Shown: positions 26,400-42,373, counted from the first letter of the stretch. The stretch: DNA of 64,000 nucleotides from Escherichia coli (GCF_024298765.1 NZ_CP101210.1); one strand, 5' to 3'. Translations and numbers: made by a program. Notes: generated by a model not told the origin, from the sequence alone.

Positions 26400-26553
26400 G
26401 CTGTGGGTGCTTGAGACTGTTTGTCTCAGGTATTCACCGAAAGGCAGACAGAGAAAAGCCCCACCTGACTATAAATCAAAGTGAGGCTACCCTATGCCTG
26501 AACACCATAAGGTTAGCCTCTTACTCGTTGGAAATCAACACAGGAGGCTGGGA
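26400..26553. promoter_or_regulatory. hokA leader region (mok start and expected antisense sokA target)
   Basis: In-frame upstream ORF from 26494 and SD aggagg before hokA; Sok-like antisense expected on the opposite strand but not positioned. Confidence 0.4.
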
Positions 26554-26706
26554 ATGCCGCAGAAATATAGATTGCTTTCTTTAATAGTGATTTGTTTCAC
26601 GCTTTTATTTTTTACCTGGATGGTAAGAGATTCACTGTGTGAATTGCATATTAAACAGGGAAGTTATGAGCTGGCGGCATTTTTAGCCTGCAATTTGAAA
26701 GAGTAA
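26554..26706 (+). CDS. hokA: Hok-family type I toxin (50 aa)
   Basis: MPQKYRLLSLIVICFTLLFFTWMVRDSLCELHIKQGSYELAAFLACNLKE; single TM helix. Confidence 0.85.
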   Translation: MPQKYRLLSLIVICFTLLFFTWMVRDSLCELHIKQGSYELAAFLACNLKE

Positions 26707-26722
26707 GAGACTTTGGCGGGAA

Positions 26723-26748
26723 GTTATTCCCGCCTTTCTTACGGCGTT
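26723..26748 (+). terminator. Hairpin terminator after hokA
   Basis: ggcgggaagttattcccgcc followed by tttctt. Confidence 0.5.
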
Positions 26749-26893
26749 GCGCATTCTCATTGCACCCAAATTTATTCTTCACAAAAATAACACTAGATTC
26801 TATTACGCGATCGATTATTTATTTCCTGAAAAACAAATAAAAAAATCCCCGCCAAATGGCAGGGATCTTAGATTCTGTGCTTTTAAGCAGAGA

Positions 26894-27106
26894 TTACAGG
26901 CTGGTTACGTTACCAGCTGCCGGGCCTTTAGCGCCGCTTTCGATGGTGAAGGACACTTTCTGACCTTCGTCCAGAGATTTGTAACCATCGTTCTGGATAG
27001 CAGAGAAGTGTACGAACACGTCTTTAGAGCCATCGTCAGGAGTGATGAAGCCGAAGCCTTTGTCAGCGTTGAACCATTTTACGATACCAGTCATTTTACC
27101 GGACAT
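26894..27106 (-). CDS. cspA: Major cold-shock protein CspA
   Basis: 70-aa [24 protein letters not shown], exact CspA sequence. Confidence 0.97.
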
Positions 27107-27266
27107 AGTGTATTACCTTTAATAATTAAGTGTGCCTTTCGGCGATATGGCGTGCTTTACAGATTTTGAAGCGTTAAAGGAATGTGCACTACGAGGGGTA
27201 TCAACGATAACTCTTGAAGGGACTTGCCTTACTACACTGCTTTAATGGTCTGTACGTCAAACCGTT
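27107..27266 (-). promoter_or_regulatory. cspA long 5' UTR (cold-box / thermosensor leader)
   Basis: About 160 nt between the conserved cspA start and upstream promoter-like AT-rich sequence; known long cspA leader. Confidence 0.5.
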
Positions 27267-36679: not shown

Positions 36680-38371
36680 ATGAGATACATCAAATCGATT
36701 ACACAGCAGAAGCTGAGCTTTTTGCTTGCAATCTATATTGGCCTTTTTATGAATGGCGCGGTTTTTTACCGCCGCTTCGGCAGCTATGCGCACGATTTTA
36801 CCGTCTGGAAAGGCATTTCTGCTGTTGTTGAACTGGCCGCCACCGTACTGGTGACCTTCTTTTTACTACGTCTTCTTTCGCTGTTTGGCCGCCGTAGCTG
36901 GCGTATTCTGGCGTCGCTGGTGGTGCTCTTTTCCGCAGGTGCCAGCTATTACATGACCTTCCTTAATGTGGTCATTGGTTATGGCATCATCGCTTCCGTC
37001 ATGACCACCGATATCGACCTGTCAAAAGAAGTTGTTGGTCTGAACTTTATTCTCTGGTTAATCGCCGTAAGTGCATTGCCTCTTATCCTTATCTGGAATA
37101 ACCGCTGTCGTTACACCTTGCTCCGACAGCTGCGAACCCCTGGACAGCGTATTCGCAGCCTGGCGGTCGTCGTGCTAGCTGGTATTATGGTTTGGGCACC
37201 GATTCGTTTGCTGGATATCCAGCAGAAGAAAGTGGAGAGGGCGACCGGTGTTGATTTGCCAAGCTATGGCGGCGTCGTAGCGAACTCTTATCTGCCATCA
37301 AACTGGCTTTCGGCATTGGGGCTGTATGCCTGGGCGCGGGTCGATGAATCTTCCGATAACAATTCATTGCTTAATCCGGCGAAGAAATTCACTTATCAGG
37401 CACCGCAAAACGTTGATGACACTTATGTCGTGTTTATCATCGGTGAAACTACGCGTTGGGACCATATGGGCATTTTCGGCTATGAGCGTAATACCACGCC
37501 GAAGCTGGCCCAGGAGAAAAATCTGGCGGCGTTCCGTGGCTATTCTTGTGACACGGCGACCAAACTTTCTCTGCGTTGCATGTTTGTACGAGAGGGTGGA
37601 GCGGAAGATAATCCGCAGCGCACATTAAAAGAACAGAACATTTTCGCGGTGCTGAAGCAGTTAGGATTCAGTTCTGACCTCTACGCTATGCAGAGCGAAA
37701 TGTGGTTCTACAGCAACACGATGGCGGACAACATTGCTTATCGTGAGCAGATTGGTGCGGAGCCACGTAACCGTGGCAAGCCGGTAGATGATATGTTGCT
37801 GGTAGACGAAATGCAGCAATCGCTGGGGCGCAACCCGGATGGCAAGCATCTGATCATTTTGCATACCAAAGGTTCGCACTTTAACTACACCCAGCGTTAC
37901 CCGCGCAGCTTTGCGCAGTGGAAGCCGGAATGTATTGGTGTTGATAGCGGCTGTACCAAAGCGCAGATGATCAACTCCTATGACAACTCGGTGACCTATG
38001 TGGATCACTTTATCTCCAGCGTGATTGATCAGGTTCGCGATAAGAAAGCGATTGTGTTCTACGCAGCTGACCACGGTGAGTCAATTAACGAACGCGAGCA
38101 CCTGCACGGCACGCCGCGTGAACTGGCACCGCCGGAACAGTTCCGTGTGCCGATGATGGTCTGGATGTCGGATAAATATCTGGAAAATCCGGTCAATGCG
38201 CAGGCATTTGCGCAGCTGAAAAAAGAAGCCGACATGAAAGTGCCACGCCGTCACGTAGAGCTGTACGACACCATTATGGGGTGTCTTGGCTATACTTCAC
38301 CTGATGGTGGAATTAACGAAAACAACAACTGGTGTCACATCCCGCAGGCAAAAGAGGCAGCGGCTAACTAA
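36680..38371 (+). CDS. eptB: Kdo2-lipid A phosphoethanolamine transferase
   Basis: ORF trimmed to [10 protein letters not shown] start (563 aa); N-terminal TM domain plus sulfatase-like domain. Confidence 0.92.
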
Positions 38372-38462
38372 GCGGCCTGCTGACTTTCTCGCCGATCAAA
38401 AGGCATTTTGCTATTAAGGGATTGACGAGGGCGTATCTGCGCAGTAAGATGCGCCCCGCATT

Positions 38463-38539
<77 letters not shown>

Positions 38540-38545
38540 AATTCG

Positions 38546-38576
38546 AAAAGCCTGCTCAGCGAGCAGGCTTTTTTGC
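38546..38576 (+). terminator. proK Rho-independent terminator
   Basis: aaaagcctgctcagcgagcaggcttttttg immediately after the tRNA. Confidence 0.8.
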
Positions 38577-38632
38577 ATTTGTTGACCCGTCCTGAATAGC
38601 GTTGACACGTTCCTGACTTAAATCCGGAGAAC

Positions 38633-39037
38633 GTGATGATGACTGAGTTCAAACGCACCCAACGTGATTATCCTCTATCCTTTAAAATAGCTGTTGTTGA
38701 GCAGGTTGAAAAAGGCGAGATGACCTATAAACAGGCCCAGCAGCGGTATGGCATTCAGGGGCGCTCCACCGTTCTTGTCTGGTTACGTAAATATGGCCGG
38801 CTTGACTGGAGTCCTGGACTTCCTGACCTGGTGAAGAGGAAACTGCCTGTGACTCAGACAACTATCCCGCTCACACCCGAGCAAAGAATCAGGGAACTTG
38901 AAGCGCAGCTTGAGCTGGCGAACCAGAAAGCTGAGTTTTTTGAGTCAGTTATCAATGTCCTTAAAAATGATTACGGGGTGAGTATCGTAAAAAAGCGGCC
39001 CGGCAAGTCCTCGCGCAAAGTCCGGCCCCCAAAATAA
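38633..39037 (+). CDS. IS3-family transposase OrfA (HTH)
   Basis: 134-aa ORF with HTH region and leucine-zipper-like C-terminus; slippery A_AAA_AAG near 38986. Confidence 0.85.
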   Translation: MMMTEFKRTQRDYPLSFKIAVVEQVEKGEMTYKQAQQRYGIQGRSTVLVWLRKYGRLDWSPGLPDLVKRKLPVTQTTIPLTPEQRIRELEAQLELANQKAEFFESVINVLKNDYGVSIVKKRPGKSSRKVRPPK

Positions 39038-39039
39038 CT

Positions 39040-39891
39040 GTGACGCGTGCATGTCTGTTCCTGGGACACAGCAGACAGGCATGGTATCAGGACAACACAA
39101 GGCGCAGAAAACGGCAGGAACATCATGCTCAGGTTCTTGATTTTGTTGCCCGTGTCAGATGTCGTCAGCCCCGAATCGGTGCGCGTAAGCTGCACTATCT
39201 GCTGAACACTCAGGCCGATAAAAGGCTGAATATCGGGCGAGACCGCCTGTTTAACCTGCTCGATGAATACCGACTCCTGGTGCCAGTAAAACGGGCATAT
39301 CACAAAACTACCAACAGTCATCATCGCTTCTACCGACATCCAAACCTGCTTAAACCAGGCCCTGAACAGGTTACCGCTCTTGAACCAGAACAGGTCTGGG
39401 TCGCCGATATTACTTACCTTCCACTGCGCAATGGTACGGCCTATCTGAGTCTGGTCACCGATGCCTGCTCCAGAAAAATTATGGGCTACCATGTTGGGGA
39501 AAACCTGCAGACAGAAAATGTGGTAAAAGCGTTCAGACAGGCGCTGAGGCTGAGAAAAACGACGAGTCCCCTGGTGCATCATTCTGACAGGGGGCTGCAA
39601 TACTGTTCAGCGCTCTATCAGTCAGTTCATGAAAGAAATGGAATAACCTGTTCAATGACGGATGGTTATGACTGCTACCAGAACGCACTGGCTGAGCGAA
39701 TAAACGGTATCCTGAAAAATGAGTTTTTACTCTCGCGTCCTGCAGACCTGGCGCAGGCCCGGGAAATGGTCAAAGAGTCCGTGGCAATTTATAACCATGA
39801 GCGGCCACATCTGGCTCTGAAATACAAAACACCCGATGACGTTCATCAGGCGTTTTACAGACAGAAAAGTGTCAACGTATATCAGGACTAG
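39040..39891 (+). CDS. IS3-family transposase OrfB (DDE integrase core)
   Basis: 283-aa ORF in the -1 frame relative to orfA; rve-type catalytic residues (WVADITY, HSDRGLQY, ERING). Confidence 0.85.
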   Translation: MTRACLFLGHSRQAWYQDNTRRRKRQEHHAQVLDFVARVRCRQPRIGARKLHYLLNTQADKRLNIGRDRLFNLLDEYRLLVPVKRAYHKTTNSHHRFYRHPNLLKPGPEQVTALEPEQVWVADITYLPLRNGTAYLSLVTDACSRKIMGYHVGENLQTENVVKAFRQALRLRKTTSPLVHHSDRGLQYCSALYQSVHERNGITCSMTDGYDCYQNALAERINGILKNEFLLSRPADLAQAREMVKESVAIYNHERPHLALKYKTPDDVHQAFYRQKSVNVYQD

Positions 39892-39897
39892 TCATGT

Positions 39898-40111
39898 AGC
39901 CTATGAGGATGAGAACCTCCGGGGGCAGGGAGGTTCGACTCGAGCGAAGCGAGAGAACGTTGCGCCAGCAACGGCCCGCAGGGCGAGCCACGAAGTGGCG
40001 AGTAATCCTCTATCACCGACCAAATTCGAAAAGCCTGCTCAACGAGCAGGCTTTTTTGCATCTGTAGCCCATGAGGATGAGAACCTCCGGGGGCGGGGAG
40101 GTTCGACTCGA
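39898..40111 (+). repeat. att-like direct repeat: second copy of proK 3' end plus terminator, with two copies of a 46-bp element
   Basis: aatcctctatcaccgacca plus terminator at about 40004-40058 duplicates 38521-38576; agccYatgaggatgagaacctccgggggcRgggaggttcgactcga at 39898-39943 and 40066-40111. Confidence 0.7.
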
Positions 40112-40190
40112 CGTAGGCCTGATAAGACGCGCCAGCGTCGCATCAGGCAAATGTACCGGCCCATTGTCGGATTCGGCGCGACCGCCTTAT
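40112..40190. repeat. REP palindromic unit(s)
   Basis: gtaggcctgataagacgcgccagcgtcgcatcaggc, canonical E. coli REP. Confidence 0.7.
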
Positions 40191-40735
40191 CCGATCTACA
40201 CACCACACATTTCCCTGCCAAATTTGCGCCCCATATCTCACTATCCATTAACGGATTTGTGACAGAAACCATTGTCTTTTTTTATATTTGCTTAAATCTT
40301 TTTTTGCGTTACTTATGGCTGGCGCTGGCATTTTCCGCTGTGCGTTTTAGCGTTCATGGTATTAATCGCTCAGATATCCACCTTTACCTCAGATTTTTTT
40401 CATTAAATGCATAAAACTTAATCACCAAATGTTGCTAAATATTAAGCTGATTGTTCTGGTTGTGTTGGCGTAGCACAAATTTCTCTGCTGCAAATAGCTG
40501 TTTGAAGTTTTTTTAATCTTTGTTTGTGGATTCTCACCGTTGGTGTAAATCCCGGTTGGCTGTATTGACGTTTTCACATTCTGTTGACAGATTGTAGGTC
40601 ACGAGGGGCATTTTATGGAGGATCCGCACTGTTACACTGATGTTAATTAGTACGGCATCCCCACCTCATAACGTTGACCCGACCGGGCAAAAAACAAAAA
40701 AGGTCAGGCAGCGACAACCCACTGCAAAGGGTTAA

Positions 40736-40765: not shown

Positions 40766-42373
40766 ATGCGTATTTCCTTGAAAAAGTCAGGGATGCTGAA
40801 GCTTGGTCTCAGCCTGGTGGCTATGACCGTCGCAGCAAGTGTTCAGGCTAAAACTCTGGTTTATTGCTCAGAAGGATCTCCGGAAGGGTTTAACCCGCAG
40901 CTGTTTACCTCCGGCACCACCTATGACGCCTCTTCCGTACCGCTTTATAACCGTCTGGTTGAATTTAAAATCGGCACCACTGAAGTGATCCCGGGCCTCG
41001 CTGAAAAGTGGGAAGTCAGCGAAGACGGTAAAACCTATACCTTCCATCTGCGTAAAGGTGTGAAGTGGCACGACAATAAAGAATTCAAACCGACGCGCGA
41101 ACTGAATGCCGATGACGTAGTGTTCTCGTTCGATCGTCAGAAAAACGCGCAAAACCCGTACCATAAAGTTTCTGGCGGTAGCTACGAATACTTTGAAGGC
41201 ATGGGCTTGCCGGAGCTGATCAGCGAAGTGAAAAAGGTGGACGACAACACCGTTCAGTTTGTGCTGACTCGACCGGAAGCGCCGTTCCTCGCTGACCTGG
41301 CAATGGACTTCGCCTCTATTCTGTCAAAAGAATATGCTGACGCGATGATGAAAGCCGGTACACCGGAAAAACTGGACCTCAACCCAATCGGCACCGGTCC
41401 GTTCCAGTTACAGCAGTACCAAAAAGATTCCCGTATCCGCTACAAAGCGTTTGATGGCTACTGGGGCACCAAACCGCAGATCGATACGCTGGTTTTCTCT
41501 ATTACCCCTGATGCTTCCGTGCGTTACGCGAAATTGCAGAAGAATGAATGCCAGGTGATGCCGTACCCGAACCCGGCAGATATCGCTCGCATGAAGCAGG
41601 ATAAATCCATCAATCTGATGGAAATGCCGGGGCTTAACGTCGGCTATCTTTCATATAACGTGCAGAAAAAACCACTTGATGACGTGAAAGTTCGCCAGGC
41701 TCTGACCTACGCGGTGAACAAAGACGCGATCATCAAAGCGGTTTATCAGGGCGCGGGCGTGGCAGCGAAAAACCTGATCCCGCCAACCATGTGGGGCTAT
41801 AACGACGACGTTCAGGACTACACCTACGATCCCGAAAAAGCGAAAGCCTTGCTGAAAGAAGCGGGCCTGGAAAAAGGCTTCTCCATCGACCTGTGGGCAA
41901 TGCCGGTACAACGTCCGTATAACCCGAATGCTCGCCGCATGGCAGAGATGATTCAGGCAGACTGGGCGAAAGTGGGCGTGCAGGCCAAAATTGTCACCTA
42001 CGAATGGGGTGAGTATCTCAAGCGTGCGAAAGATGGCGAGCATCAGACGGTAATGATGGGCTGGACTGGCGACAACGGGGATCCGGATAACTTCTTCGCC
42101 ACCCTGTTCAGCTGCGCCGCCTCTGAACAAGGCTCCAACTACTCAAAATGGTGCTACAAACCGTTTGAAGATCTGATTCAACCGGCGCGTGCCACCGACG
42201 ACCATAACAAACGTGTTGAACTGTACAAACAAGCGCAGGTGGTGATGCACGATCAGGCTCCGGCACTGATCATCGCTCACTCCACCGTATTTGAACCGGT
42301 ACGCAAAGAAGTTAAAGGCTATGTGGTTGATCCATTAGGCAAACATCACTTCGAAAACGTCTCTATCGAATAA
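40766..42373 (+). CDS. dppA: Dipeptide ABC transporter periplasmic binding protein
   Basis: 535-aa ORF with signal peptide; SBP family 5. Confidence 0.96.
   Translation: MRISLKKSGMLKLGLSLVAMTVAASVQAKTLVYCSEGSPEGFNPQLFTSGTTYDASSVPLYNRLVEFKIGTTEVIPGLAEKWEVSEDGKTYTFHLRKGVKWHDNKEFKPTRELNADDVVFSFDRQKNAQNPYHKVSGGSYEYFEGMGLPELISEVKKVDDNTVQFVLTRPEAPFLADLAMDFASILSKEYADAMMKAGTPEKLDLNPIGTGPFQLQQYQKDSRIRYKAFDGYWGTKPQIDTLVFSITPDASVRYAKLQKNECQVMPYPNPADIARMKQDKSINLMEMPGLNVGYLSYNVQKKPLDDVKVRQALTYAVNKDAIIKAVYQGAGVAAKNLIPPTMWGYNDDVQDYTYDPEKAKALLKEAGLEKGFSIDLWAMPVQRPYNPNARRMAEMIQADWAKVGVQAKIVTYEWGEYLKRAKDGEHQTVMMGWTGDNGDPDNFFATLFSCAASEQGSNYSKWCYKPFEDLIQPARATDDHNKRVELYKQAQVVMHDQAPALIIAHSTVFEPVRKEVKGYVVDPLGKHHFENVSIE

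What the first reader, a model, noticed from the sequence alone, without database searches (positions are those of the whole stretch)
38583..39894. Strain-specific IS3-family element inserted 41 bp downstream of proK
A 1312-bp element with imperfect terminal inverted repeats (TGA...TCA ends), a 3-bp TGT duplication, and two ORFs arranged for programmed -1 frameshifting at A_AAA_AAG. I do not recall any IS here in K-12, and its OrfA does not match my memory of IS150 InsJ or the IS2/IS3/IS911 OrfA sequences. It sits between proK and the dppA regulatory leader.
Basis: partly seen in the sequence, partly recalled or inferred. Interest (0 to 1): 0.45.

Follow-up and report, generated by a model that had tools for sequence, protein, structure and literature searches.

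The report
ISSen1-like insertion sequence that targets terminators
The finding is a real, intact 1312-bp IS3-family insertion sequence (an ISSen1 relative) sitting just after the proK tRNA terminator, ordinary as an insertion, but this element and its relatives almost always land 13-15 bases after a terminator hairpin in one orientation, a targeting habit I found no description of.

Summary
Window 38583-39894 is an intact 1312-bp IS3-family element. It has imperfect TG...CA inverted repeats, a 3-bp TGT target duplication, orfA and orfB in the 0/-1 frames with an A_AAA_AAG slippery site, and a DD(35)E catalytic domain.

K-12 has the empty site. The proK/IS left junction is present in 71 of 5426 complete E. 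coli genomes, and a full-length copy is present anywhere in 250. Salmonella plasmid copies about 91% identical are annotated by NCBI's annotation pipeline (PGAP) as "ISSen1 family".

The element sits exactly 14 nt after the stem of the proK intrinsic terminator, left end towards the hairpin. I collected 78 distinct left-end flanks of this element and its relatives from Escherichia, Salmonella, Citrobacter, Klebsiella, Serratia, Erwinia, Pantoea, Tatumella and marine gammaproteobacteria. In 71 of them a G/C followed by a T-run begins 13-15 nt before the element, and 53 also have a perfect hairpin of at least 5 bp abutting the run. Only 0.28% of background positions meet that condition.

The rule holds at a terminator-like motif inside a plasmid gene and on the "back side" of the csrC and acrD terminators, so DNA features rather than termination itself appear to be read. 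Nine literature searches found no description of this. As an insertion it is ordinary; its target selection is a probable new variant.

The parts
38463..38539 (+). proK, tRNA-Pro(CGG), intact
   Evidence: ARAGORN; Rfam tRNA at 60.7 bits
38550..38574 (+). proK intrinsic terminator and the target signal: stem-loop GCCTGCTC-AGC-GAGCAGGC (38550-38568) followed by T6 (38569-38574)
   Evidence: Terminator scan; sequence. The stem ends 14 nt before the element
38580..38582 (.). Left copy of the 3-bp target-site duplication (TGT)
   Evidence: empty site in K-12
38583..39894 (+). Complete ISSen1-like IS3-family insertion sequence, 1312 bp
   Evidence: 100% identical copies at several loci in other E. 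coli genomes; about 91% identical to copies PGAP names ISSen1 family
38583..38609 (+). Left inverted repeat (IRL), TGACCCGTCCTGAATAGCGTTGACACG
   Evidence: the first 24 nt are conserved across a clade found in many genera
38636..39037 (+). orfA, 133 aa, with a helix-turn-helix domain at residues 16-54
   Evidence: Pfam HTH_28, 1.5e-6; exact protein found in public collections
38989..38995 (+). Slippery heptamer A_AAA_AAG for -1 frameshifting from orfA into orfB
   Evidence: Frame arithmetic; the fusion translates to an uninterrupted 418 aa; PGAP note 'programmed frameshift'
38971..39891 (+). orfB reading frame (open from 38971; the 283-aa ORF starts at GTG 39040). It holds the DDE catalytic domain: D in WVADITY, D in HHSDRG, E in NALAERING, with 35 residues between the second D and E
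   Evidence: Pfam rve 1e-21 and rve_3 4.9e-20; NCBIfam NF033516 at 260 bits against a cutoff of 160; residue count on the sequence
39868..39894 (+). Right inverted repeat (IRR), ...GTGTCAACGTATATCAGGACTAGTCA
39895..39897 (.). Right copy of the target-site duplication (TGT)
39895..40022 (+). RtT-type repeat, host DNA and not part of the element. The Rfam hit is drawn from 39889, so its first 6 nt overlap the element's end
   Evidence: Rfam RF00391, 100.4 bits; the same unit is present in K-12
40033..40057 (+). Second, unoccupied copy of the proK-type terminator (stem-loop plus T6), preceded by a copy of the proK 3' end
40116..40196 (-). REP element (naRNA4 hit), unoccupied host repeat
   Evidence: Rfam RF02564, 68.5 bits
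40766..42373 (+). dppA, 535 aa, 871 nt downstream of the element
   Evidence: annotation of the identical locus

Best explanation
The feature is an intact and probably active insertion sequence of the IS3 family, closely related to ISSen1. It makes OrfA, and by -1 ribosomal frameshifting at A_AAA_AAG it makes the OrfAB DDE transposase. By analogy with IS911, IS2 and IS3 it should move by copy-out-paste-in through a circular intermediate; this step is inferred, not shown. It inserted between the proK terminator and the first RtT repeat and duplicated TGT. proK and its terminator stay intact and dppA lies 871 nt away, so the insertion is probably neutral for the host. The position is not accidental. 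The transposition complex of this clade picks DNA that looks like an intrinsic terminator: a GC-rich stem abutting a T-run. It joins the left end (IRL) 13-15 nt after the stem/T-run junction, always 14 nt in the first sample of E. coli copies, and makes a 3-bp duplication of variable sequence. The hairpin is left intact, and the transposase gene reads in the same direction as the strand that carries the T-run. The T-run lies roughly one helical turn from the duplicated 3 bp, which suggests one side of the complex reads the A/T tract while the cuts are made next to it (inference). The pattern is shown by comparative sequence data. The protein-DNA contacts, and whether an extruded hairpin is needed, are not shown.
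For: Anatomy. Empty sites in K-12: proK, serX, fur. Recent mobility: 100% identical copies at proK, fur, feoC and the csrC side, with up to 5 places per genome. First unbiased sample: 7 distinct E. coli loci, all with hairpin, then 14 nt, then IRL, and with duplications TGT, AGG, CGG, ATA, CGG, CTC, TTA. Scan of one genome per species with the IRL 24-mer, plus plasmid and other loci: 78 distinct IRL flanks. In 71 a G/C followed by a T-run starts 13-15 nt before the element (44 at 14 nt), and 53 have a perfect hairpin of at least 5 bp abutting it. In the rest of the window 0.28% of positions qualify (binomial about 1e-116). Position profile: C at -15 in 50 of 61 flanks, T at -13 to -9 in 54-59 of 61, T at -6 in 45 of 61, and the duplicated bases not conserved. 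Among T-run sites the hairpin frequency was 48 of 63, against 13 of 76 for T-runs outside long ORFs in the window. The rule also holds inside a coding region: F-plasmid trbJ has CCCCT..AGGGG, C, T6, then 14 nt, with duplication GCC. It holds on the non-terminating side of bidirectional terminators too: between the CsrC body and its terminator and between the acrD stop codon and its hairpin. The hairpins are host sequences that differ from site to site and are present at the empty sites.
Against: Seven of 78 flanks are non-canonical. L110 and L123 (inside an integrase gene) show no T-run, and in L127 the hairpin and T-run lie 14 nt from the right end instead, so the orientation rule is strong but not absolute. 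18 of the 71 T-run sites lack a perfect hairpin of at least 5 bp, including an intragenic site in an MFS transporter gene (L120) and some plasmid sites, so a sequence motif alone may be enough. Selection against insertions in genes inflates the apparent preference for terminators. No transposition assay exists here, and the ISfinder and TnPedia entries could not be consulted, so the behaviour may already be recorded there. No significant RNA structure that would stimulate the frameshift was predicted downstream of the heptamer.
Confidence: 0.85

Rival explanations
1. The element reads only a short sequence motif, roughly C-TTTTTT-N-W-T-K about 6-15 bp to the left of the cut. Terminators are hit simply because they are where that motif occurs in places that tolerate an insertion, and the hairpin is irrelevant.
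For: The information in the position profile is concentrated in the T-run and the preceding C. 18 of 71 T-run sites lack a perfect hairpin. The intragenic site L120 (GGGC-TTCTTTATTGATAC) and plasmid sites L099 and L104 have the motif without a clear stem.
Against: Hairpins abut 48 of 63 used T-runs, against 13 of 76 T-runs outside long ORFs in the window (P about 1e-24). The intragenic trbJ site does have a hairpin. Stem positions -19 to -15 are G/C-rich. Selection cannot be separated from targeting with these data.
Confidence: 0.3
2. Targeting works through single-stranded DNA hairpins exposed at the replication fork, as for IS200/IS605 elements or group IIC introns, so insertions should be biased to one strand relative to fork movement.
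For: The target is a hairpin-forming sequence, and the orientation relative to the hairpin and T-run is nearly fixed.
Against: At six chromosomal E. coli sites the element is co-directional with replication at two (proK, acrD) and head-on at four (fur, feoC, serX, csrC side). K-12 strands come; the origin and terminus positions are from general knowledge. DDE transposases of the IS3 family act on double-stranded targets and make 3-bp staggered duplications, as seen here.
Confidence: 0.08
3. The element is guided by the transcription termination process itself, for example paused or releasing RNA polymerase or an R-loop, rather than by the DNA.
For: Most sites are genuine terminators of the upstream co-directional gene (proK, fur, feoC, serX, metK and others).
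Against: At csrC and acrD the element lies upstream of the hairpin with respect to the only known transcript, next to the T-run on the opposite strand. The trbJ site is inside an operon.
Confidence: 0.06
4. There is no targeting. Insertions are random, and only neutral ones, which happen to lie after terminators, survive. A variant of this view is that the hairpin and T-run belong to the mobile unit and travel with it.
For: Intergenic insertions are the ones expected to persist in natural genomes.
Against: Selection cannot produce a fixed 13-15 nt offset and a single orientation in 71 of 78 independent flanks. The hairpins differ between sites and are present at the empty K-12 sites. The 3-bp duplications flank the 1312-bp unit directly.
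Confidence: 0.02

Closest known systems
ISSen1 (IS3 family, Salmonella enterica; ISfinder name)
   Same: Same length (1312 bp), the same first 28 nt of the left repeat and a near-identical right end, and the same gene layout. Salmonella plasmid copies 90.8-91.1% identical to the window element are named 'IS3-like element ISSen1 family transposase' by PGAP. One such copy (L099) also sits 14 nt after GGC and a T7 run, with duplication CCA.
   Different: About 9% nucleotide divergence, which is below the roughly 95% identity usually taken for the same IS (my recollection of ISfinder practice). PGAP gives the E. coli protein only the generic name 'IS3 family transposase'. The ISfinder reference sequence and its notes were not available. 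The papers I read mention ISSen1 only as a marker, for example upstream of CRISPR2 in serovar Choleraesuis (PMC3356390).
IS1397, ISKpn1 and ISPsy8 (IS3-family elements that insert into REP palindromic units)
   Same: IS3-family DDE elements whose transposases select a hairpin-forming extragenic sequence (PMC1525189).
   Different: Those elements insert within the REP palindrome itself. Here the hairpin is any terminator stem of variable sequence and is left intact, and the insertion lies 13-15 nt downstream, past a T-run. The REP element in the window (40116-40196) is unoccupied. Relatedness of the proteins was not tested.
IS1272 / TnSha1 (staphylococci)
   Same: Targets hairpins with little primary sequence conservation, many of which were confirmed as transcription terminators (PMC4923244).
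   Different: IS1272 cuts into the stem, deletes part of the hairpin, makes no target duplication and inserts in both orientations. The present element keeps the hairpin, makes a 3-bp duplication, has a fixed offset and a strongly preferred orientation, and belongs to the IS3 family.
Bacterial class C group II introns
   Same: They insert just downstream of intrinsic terminator stem-loops in a fixed orientation, a 'safe site' strategy (from general knowledge; not tested here).
   Different: They are retroelements with a ribozyme and a reverse transcriptase that act on single-stranded DNA, so there is no relationship in sequence or chemistry.
IS911, IS3, IS2 and IS150 (prototype IS3-family elements)
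   Same: Two ORFs in the 0/-1 frames, an A6G slippery site, a DD(35)E domain, TG...CA ends and a 3-bp duplication.
   Different: The prototypes are not known for terminator-linked insertion (general knowledge). The OrfA here matches HTH_28 rather than the usual HTH_Tnp_1 profile. Copy-out-paste-in is assumed by analogy only.

Membership tests
IS3 family of insertion sequences | Transposase with an integrase-like (rve) DDE catalytic domain and D..D(35)E spacing | tested here: met
   Pfam rve 1e-21 and rve_3 4.9e-20. NCBIfam NF033516 'IS3 family transposase' at 260.2 bits against a cutoff of 160. 35 residues between the D of HHSDRG and the E of NALAERING (sequence).
IS3 family of insertion sequences | Two consecutive, partly overlapping ORFs in relative frames 0 and -1 with a slippery heptamer in the overlap | tested here: met
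   orfA 38636-39037; orfB frame open from 38971; A_AAA_AAG at 38989-38995 in the correct register; the fusion gives an uninterrupted 418 aa.
IS3 family of insertion sequences | Imperfect terminal inverted repeats ending 5'-TG...CA-3' | tested here: met
   20 of 27 and 26 of 35 matches; ends TGA...TCA.
IS3 family of insertion sequences | Short (3-4 bp) direct target duplication | tested here: met
   TGT in the window. 3-bp duplications at most other complete loci checked. Single copy at the empty K-12 sites.
IS3 family of insertion sequences | Frameshifting actually produces OrfAB, and transposition goes through a circular copy-out intermediate | not testable with these tools
   Only indirect support: identical copies at several loci. 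No significant downstream RNA structure was predicted.
ISSen1 (same IS, i.e. an isoform) | At least about 95% nucleotide identity to the reference element | tested here: inconclusive
   90.5-91.1% identity to copies PGAP labels ISSen1 family. The ISfinder reference itself was not available. Best described as ISSen1-like.
REP-targeting IS3 elements (IS1397, ISKpn1) | Insertion inside REP palindromic units | tested here: not met
   The targets are terminator stems of unrelated sequence, with insertion 13-15 nt downstream. The REP element at 40116-40196 is unoccupied.
IS1272-type hairpin targeting | Blunt insertion into the stem with partial deletion of the hairpin and no target duplication | tested here: not met
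   The hairpin is intact and a 3-bp duplication is present, in contrast with PMC4923244.
Terminator-linked, orientation-specific target selection (behaviour proposed here for the ISSen1-like clade) | The left end lies 13-15 nt after a G/C-to-T-run junction, usually the base of a GC-rich hairpin | tested here: met
   Window: the stem ends at 38568 and the element starts at 38583, 14 nt later. Clade: 71 of 78 flanks, 53 with a perfect hairpin, against 0.28% of background positions.
RtT RNA (Rfam RF00391), considered because PGAP draws it overlapping the element | Match to the RtT covariance model above the gathering score | tested here: met
   100.4 bits against 45, at 39889-40022. It is host DNA also present in K-12. 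Only the unpaired first 6 model positions run into the element.

The most novel reading that the evidence does not exclude
The ISSen1-like clade of IS3-family elements homes to intrinsic terminators. Its DDE transposase uses the junction between a GC-rich terminator stem and its T-run as a molecular ruler and inserts one helical turn downstream in a preferred orientation. This would be a target-selection mode not described for DDE insertion sequences, convergent with class C group II introns. It gives the element a gene-sparing landing site behind nearly every operon and places its transposase gene behind a host terminator.
Probability: 0.5. Interest if true: 0.6.

Novelty: new variant of a known kind. 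Interest (0 to 1): 0.45.

Why it matters
As a single insertion the feature is routine: a lineage-restricted insertion sequence in a tolerant intergenic spacer, useful at most as a strain marker. The wider pattern matters more.

- It would give an IS3-family clade, spread across Enterobacterales and beyond, a precise target rule that can be predicted from sequence.
- It would explain why these copies sit behind tRNA genes, small-RNA genes and operon ends. In some strains that includes separating CsrC from its terminator and acrD from its terminator.
- It offers a simple system for asking how a DDE transposase reads DNA shape or structure at a fixed distance.
- It suggests a natural insertion activity that spares genes.
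- It is a caution for annotation: RtT and CsrC models are drawn overlapping the element's ends.

Tried and rejected
1. My first automatic hairpin measure gave scattered distances of 8-15 nt, because stems were extended into the A-run/T-run pairing of bidirectional terminators. I replaced it by anchoring on the G/C-to-T-run junction.
2. The Acidovorax and Variovorax loci from the scan at first looked like counter-examples with no terminator. Protein comparison showed that in those relatives the 24-mer is the right end, so the flanks are right flanks and say nothing about the rule. I excluded them, and their left flanks remain untested.
3. I looked for an RNA structure stimulating the frameshift downstream of the heptamer. 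The minimum-energy fold is no better than shuffled sequence (z = +1.8), and Rfam found no frameshift element in the insertion sequence.
4. I considered that the association with 'RtT sRNA' in the annotations meant RtT is the target. I rejected this because most sites have no RtT, and RtT units merely carry terminator copies.
5. I considered that strain 2014C-3338 (proK-RtT-IS-RtT) was an independent hit in the second repeat. The junctions are identical to the window's, so it is the same event followed by a change in repeat number.
6. Nine literature searches, covering terminator targeting by insertion sequences, IS3-family target specificity, '1312 bp' and ISSen1, found no description of this behaviour. 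The library lacks ISfinder, TnPedia and many subscription papers.
7. A promoter scan found no outward-facing promoter at the element's right end.
8. I did not determine the IS3 subgroup or the relatedness to IS1397 and ISKpn1.

Full report
**1. What is in the window**

Reading 38300-40200 shows proK (tRNA-Pro CGG, 38463-38539). It is followed by its intrinsic terminator: stem-loop GCCTGCTC-AGC-GAGCAGGC at 38550-38568 and T6 at 38569-38574. Then come GCATT, TGT, and a 1312-bp element at 38583-39894, again followed by TGT.

- The ends are TGA...TCA, and the terminal repeats match at 20 of 27 and 26 of 35 positions.
- orfA (38636-39037, 133 aa) carries a helix-turn-helix domain (Pfam HTH_28).
- The orfB frame is open from 38971 to 39891. 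It carries rve and rve_3 integrase-core domains and scores 260 bits on NCBIfam 'IS3 family transposase' against a cutoff of 160.
- A_AAA_AAG at 38989-38995 is in the right register for a -1 shift. The fused product is an uninterrupted 418 aa with DD(35)E spacing.
- NCBI's annotation pipeline (PGAP) annotates the identical DNA in other genomes as 'IS3 family transposase, programmed frameshift'.

The only numerical slip is the distance from proK, which is 43 nt including the duplicated TGT rather than 41.

**2. Is it an insertion, and how common is it?**

K-12 MG1655 has the same proK-dppA spacer without the element. In 5426 complete E. coli genomes:

| Feature | Genomes |
|---|---|
| Any match to the element | 1001 |
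| One place covering at least 80% of the element | 250 (up to 5 places per genome) |
| Left junction, proK plus IS | 71 |
| Site with no IS-sized interruption: at least 80% of the reconstructed query in one place, with either number of RtT units | 4585 |

Of the 1009 matching records, 141 have a best place at 99% identity or more. The insertion is thus restricted to certain lineages, not unique to this strain and not universal.

About 700 genomes, mostly of the Nissle and ST131 kind, carry only a 615-bp internally deleted relic at 89.5% identity.

Salmonella plasmid copies at 90.8-91.1% identity are named 'IS3-like element ISSen1 family transposase'. The element is best called ISSen1-like.

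**3. Surroundings**

The spacer is built from RtT-type repeats. Directly after the element lies an RtT unit (Rfam 100.4 bits, drawn from 39889 so that six unpaired model positions overlap the element). After it come:

- a copy of the proK 3' end with a second terminator (40033-40057);
- a partial RtT unit;
- a REP element (40116-40196);
- dppA, starting at 40766.

The element is therefore 871 nt from dppA and shielded from it by a terminator. proK and its own terminator are untouched, and no outward promoter was predicted at the right end. An effect on either gene is unlikely.

Other strains show the same junctions with zero, one or two RtT units around the element. This means repeat-number change after a single insertion event.

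**4. The unexpected part: target choice**

A second copy in strain 2014C-3338 lies just after the fur terminator, with the same geometry: hairpin, T6, 8 more nt including the duplicated AGG, then the left end.

In all seven the left end lies exactly 14 nt after the last base of a GC-rich stem that is followed by a T-run. The orientation is always the same. The 3-bp duplications are unrelated: TGT, AGG, CGG, ATA, CGG, CTC, TTA.

**5. Generality**

I scanned one genome per species for the 24-nt left end. It is shared by a clade of IS3 elements with OrfA 56-100% and OrfB 62-100% identical to the window element. The clade occurs in Serratia, Erwinia, Pantoea, Tatumella, Klebsiella, Kluyvera, Citrobacter, unnamed Enterobacteriaceae, and Alteromonas and other gammaproteobacterial MAGs.

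In Acidovorax and Variovorax the 24-mer is the right end, so those flanks are uninformative and I excluded them.

With further E. coli chromosomal, plasmid and metagenomic loci there are 78 distinct left flanks:

| Property of the left flank | Count |
|---|---|
| G/C followed by a T-run (at least 5 of 6 T) starting 13-15 nt before the element | 71 of 78 |
| Start at 14 / 13 / 15 nt | 44 / 18 / 9 |
| Also a perfect hairpin of at least 5 bp abutting the run | 53 of 78 |
| Background positions in the rest of the window meeting the hairpin condition | 0.28% |

The binomial probability is about 1e-116.

The position profile, made on 61 flanks, shows the following:

- C at -15 in 50 of 61 flanks.
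- T at -13 to -9 in 54-59 of 61.
- T at -6 in 45 of 61.
- G/C-rich positions at -19 to -15.
- An A-rich stretch at -39 to -32, the A-tract of bidirectional terminators.
- No conservation in the duplicated bases.

**6. What is being read?**

Four observations point to DNA features rather than the act of termination.

- An F-plasmid copy interrupts trbJ inside the tra operon. The site is CCCCT..AGGGG, C, T6, then 14 nt.
- At the csrC locus the element lies between the CsrC body and its own terminator, next to the T-run that is the complement of the A-tract.
- At acrD it lies between the stop codon and the hairpin.
- The hairpins are native host sequences, present at the empty K-12 sites, so they are not carried by the element.

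Whether the stem itself is needed is not settled. Hairpins abut 48 of 63 used T-runs, against 13 of 76 T-runs outside long ORFs in the window. But several used sites have only the T-rich motif (L099, L104, L120), and selection could contribute to the difference.

Orientation relative to replication is mixed, with two co-directional and four head-on among six chromosomal sites (K-12 strands; origin and terminus positions from general knowledge). This argues against a strictly fork-linked single-strand mechanism.

**7. Exceptions**

Seven of 78 flanks break the rule. They include insertions with no T-run (L110 after lptG, L123 inside an integrase gene). In one case (L127) the hairpin and T-run lie 14 nt from the right end, so the orientation is reversed at the usual distance. 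An allele of the same locus has the usual orientation with one extra T.

A few copies lack matching duplications and have chimeric flanks (L100, L103, L116, L121, L126), which suggests recombination between copies.

The preference is strong, about 90%, but not absolute.

**8. Comparison with what is known**

Membership in the IS3 family is met on every sequence criterion tested. The transposition pathway is assumed by analogy.

- The closest named element is ISSen1, at about 91% identity.
- Hairpin-linked targeting has precedents. IS1397, ISKpn1 and ISPsy8 of the same family insert into REP palindromes, with the transposase determining specificity (PMC1525189).
- IS1272/TnSha1 of staphylococci insert into terminator hairpins, but into the stem, with deletion, without duplication and in both orientations (PMC4923244).
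- Class C group II introns insert after terminators by an unrelated mechanism (general knowledge).

The present combination is a DDE element with an intact hairpin, a fixed 13-15 nt offset past the T-run, a 3-bp duplication and a strong orientation bias. Nine searches found no description of it. ISfinder, TnPedia and many subscription papers are outside the searchable library, so prior knowledge cannot be excluded.

**9. Verdict**

The finding as written is correct and, as an insertion, ordinary. It is an annotated, lineage-restricted, probably neutral IS3-family element. The added value is the target rule, which I rate as very likely real (about 0.85-0.9) and about even odds of being undescribed. 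Overall interest is moderate.

Noticed in passing
window 48270-49784: Four tandem Rfam rdlD antitoxin hits spaced about 483 bp apart (48270, 48753, 49236, 49719). This is a four-unit tandem array of the ldr/rdl toxin-antitoxin module.
   Followed up: no
window 39895-40110; L002 (K-12); L003; L094; L008; L107: The proK-dppA spacer is made of RtT-type units, each carrying a copy of the tRNA 3' end and its terminator. The unit number varies between genomes (0, 1 or 2). The serX locus has the same build, with four terminator copies in K-12. Each unit offers another copy of the element's target.
   Followed up: partly
L015, L040, L041, L062, L063, L077: Solo 24-28-nt left-end remnants, with no transposase gene nearby, sit at the canonical distance after terminators in a gammaproteobacterial MAG, Kluyvera, an Acidovorax MAG, Enterobacteriaceae bacterium LSJC7 and Erwinia sp. 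S63. L062 has the left end followed by a second partial left end. It is unclear how a copy-out-paste-in element would leave such scars.
   Followed up: partly
L093 (E. coli Nissle, NZ_CP148105.1 4336162-4339776) and about 700 other genomes: A 615-bp internally deleted relic of a related element (89.5% identity) is fixed in many genomes of the Nissle and ST131 kind, next to a tRNA-linked island. It too lies 14 nt after a hairpin and T7.
   Followed up: partly
L011 (csrC-yihI spacer) and L013 / L113 (acrD-yffB spacer): In some E. coli strains the element separates the CsrC small RNA from its terminator and acrD from its terminator. The Rfam CsrC model is drawn running 37 nt into the element's end. 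Effects on CsrC 3'-end formation or acrD mRNA were not examined.
   Followed up: no
L044, L046, L060, L064-L076 (Acidovorax, Variovorax): Betaproteobacterial relatives (OrfB about 62% identical) carry the same 24-mer at their right end. Just inside it is a GC-rich hairpin followed by TTTGCATTTT, reading inward. Their left-end flanks, and so their target preference, could not be examined.
   Followed up: partly
L122 / L128 versus L127 / L129 (fimbrial operon / EAL-domain gene spacer): Two alleles of one locus carry the element in opposite orientations at the same position. One has a clean GCC/GGC duplication, and the other has an extra T before the left end. This means either two independent hits on one hotspot or an inversion in place.
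   Followed up: partly
window 26405-27266: A sok antitoxin RNA hit (26405-26556) lies next to the cspA thermoregulator 5' UTR (26839-27266). These are ordinary E. coli features and are noted only for orientation.
   Followed up: no
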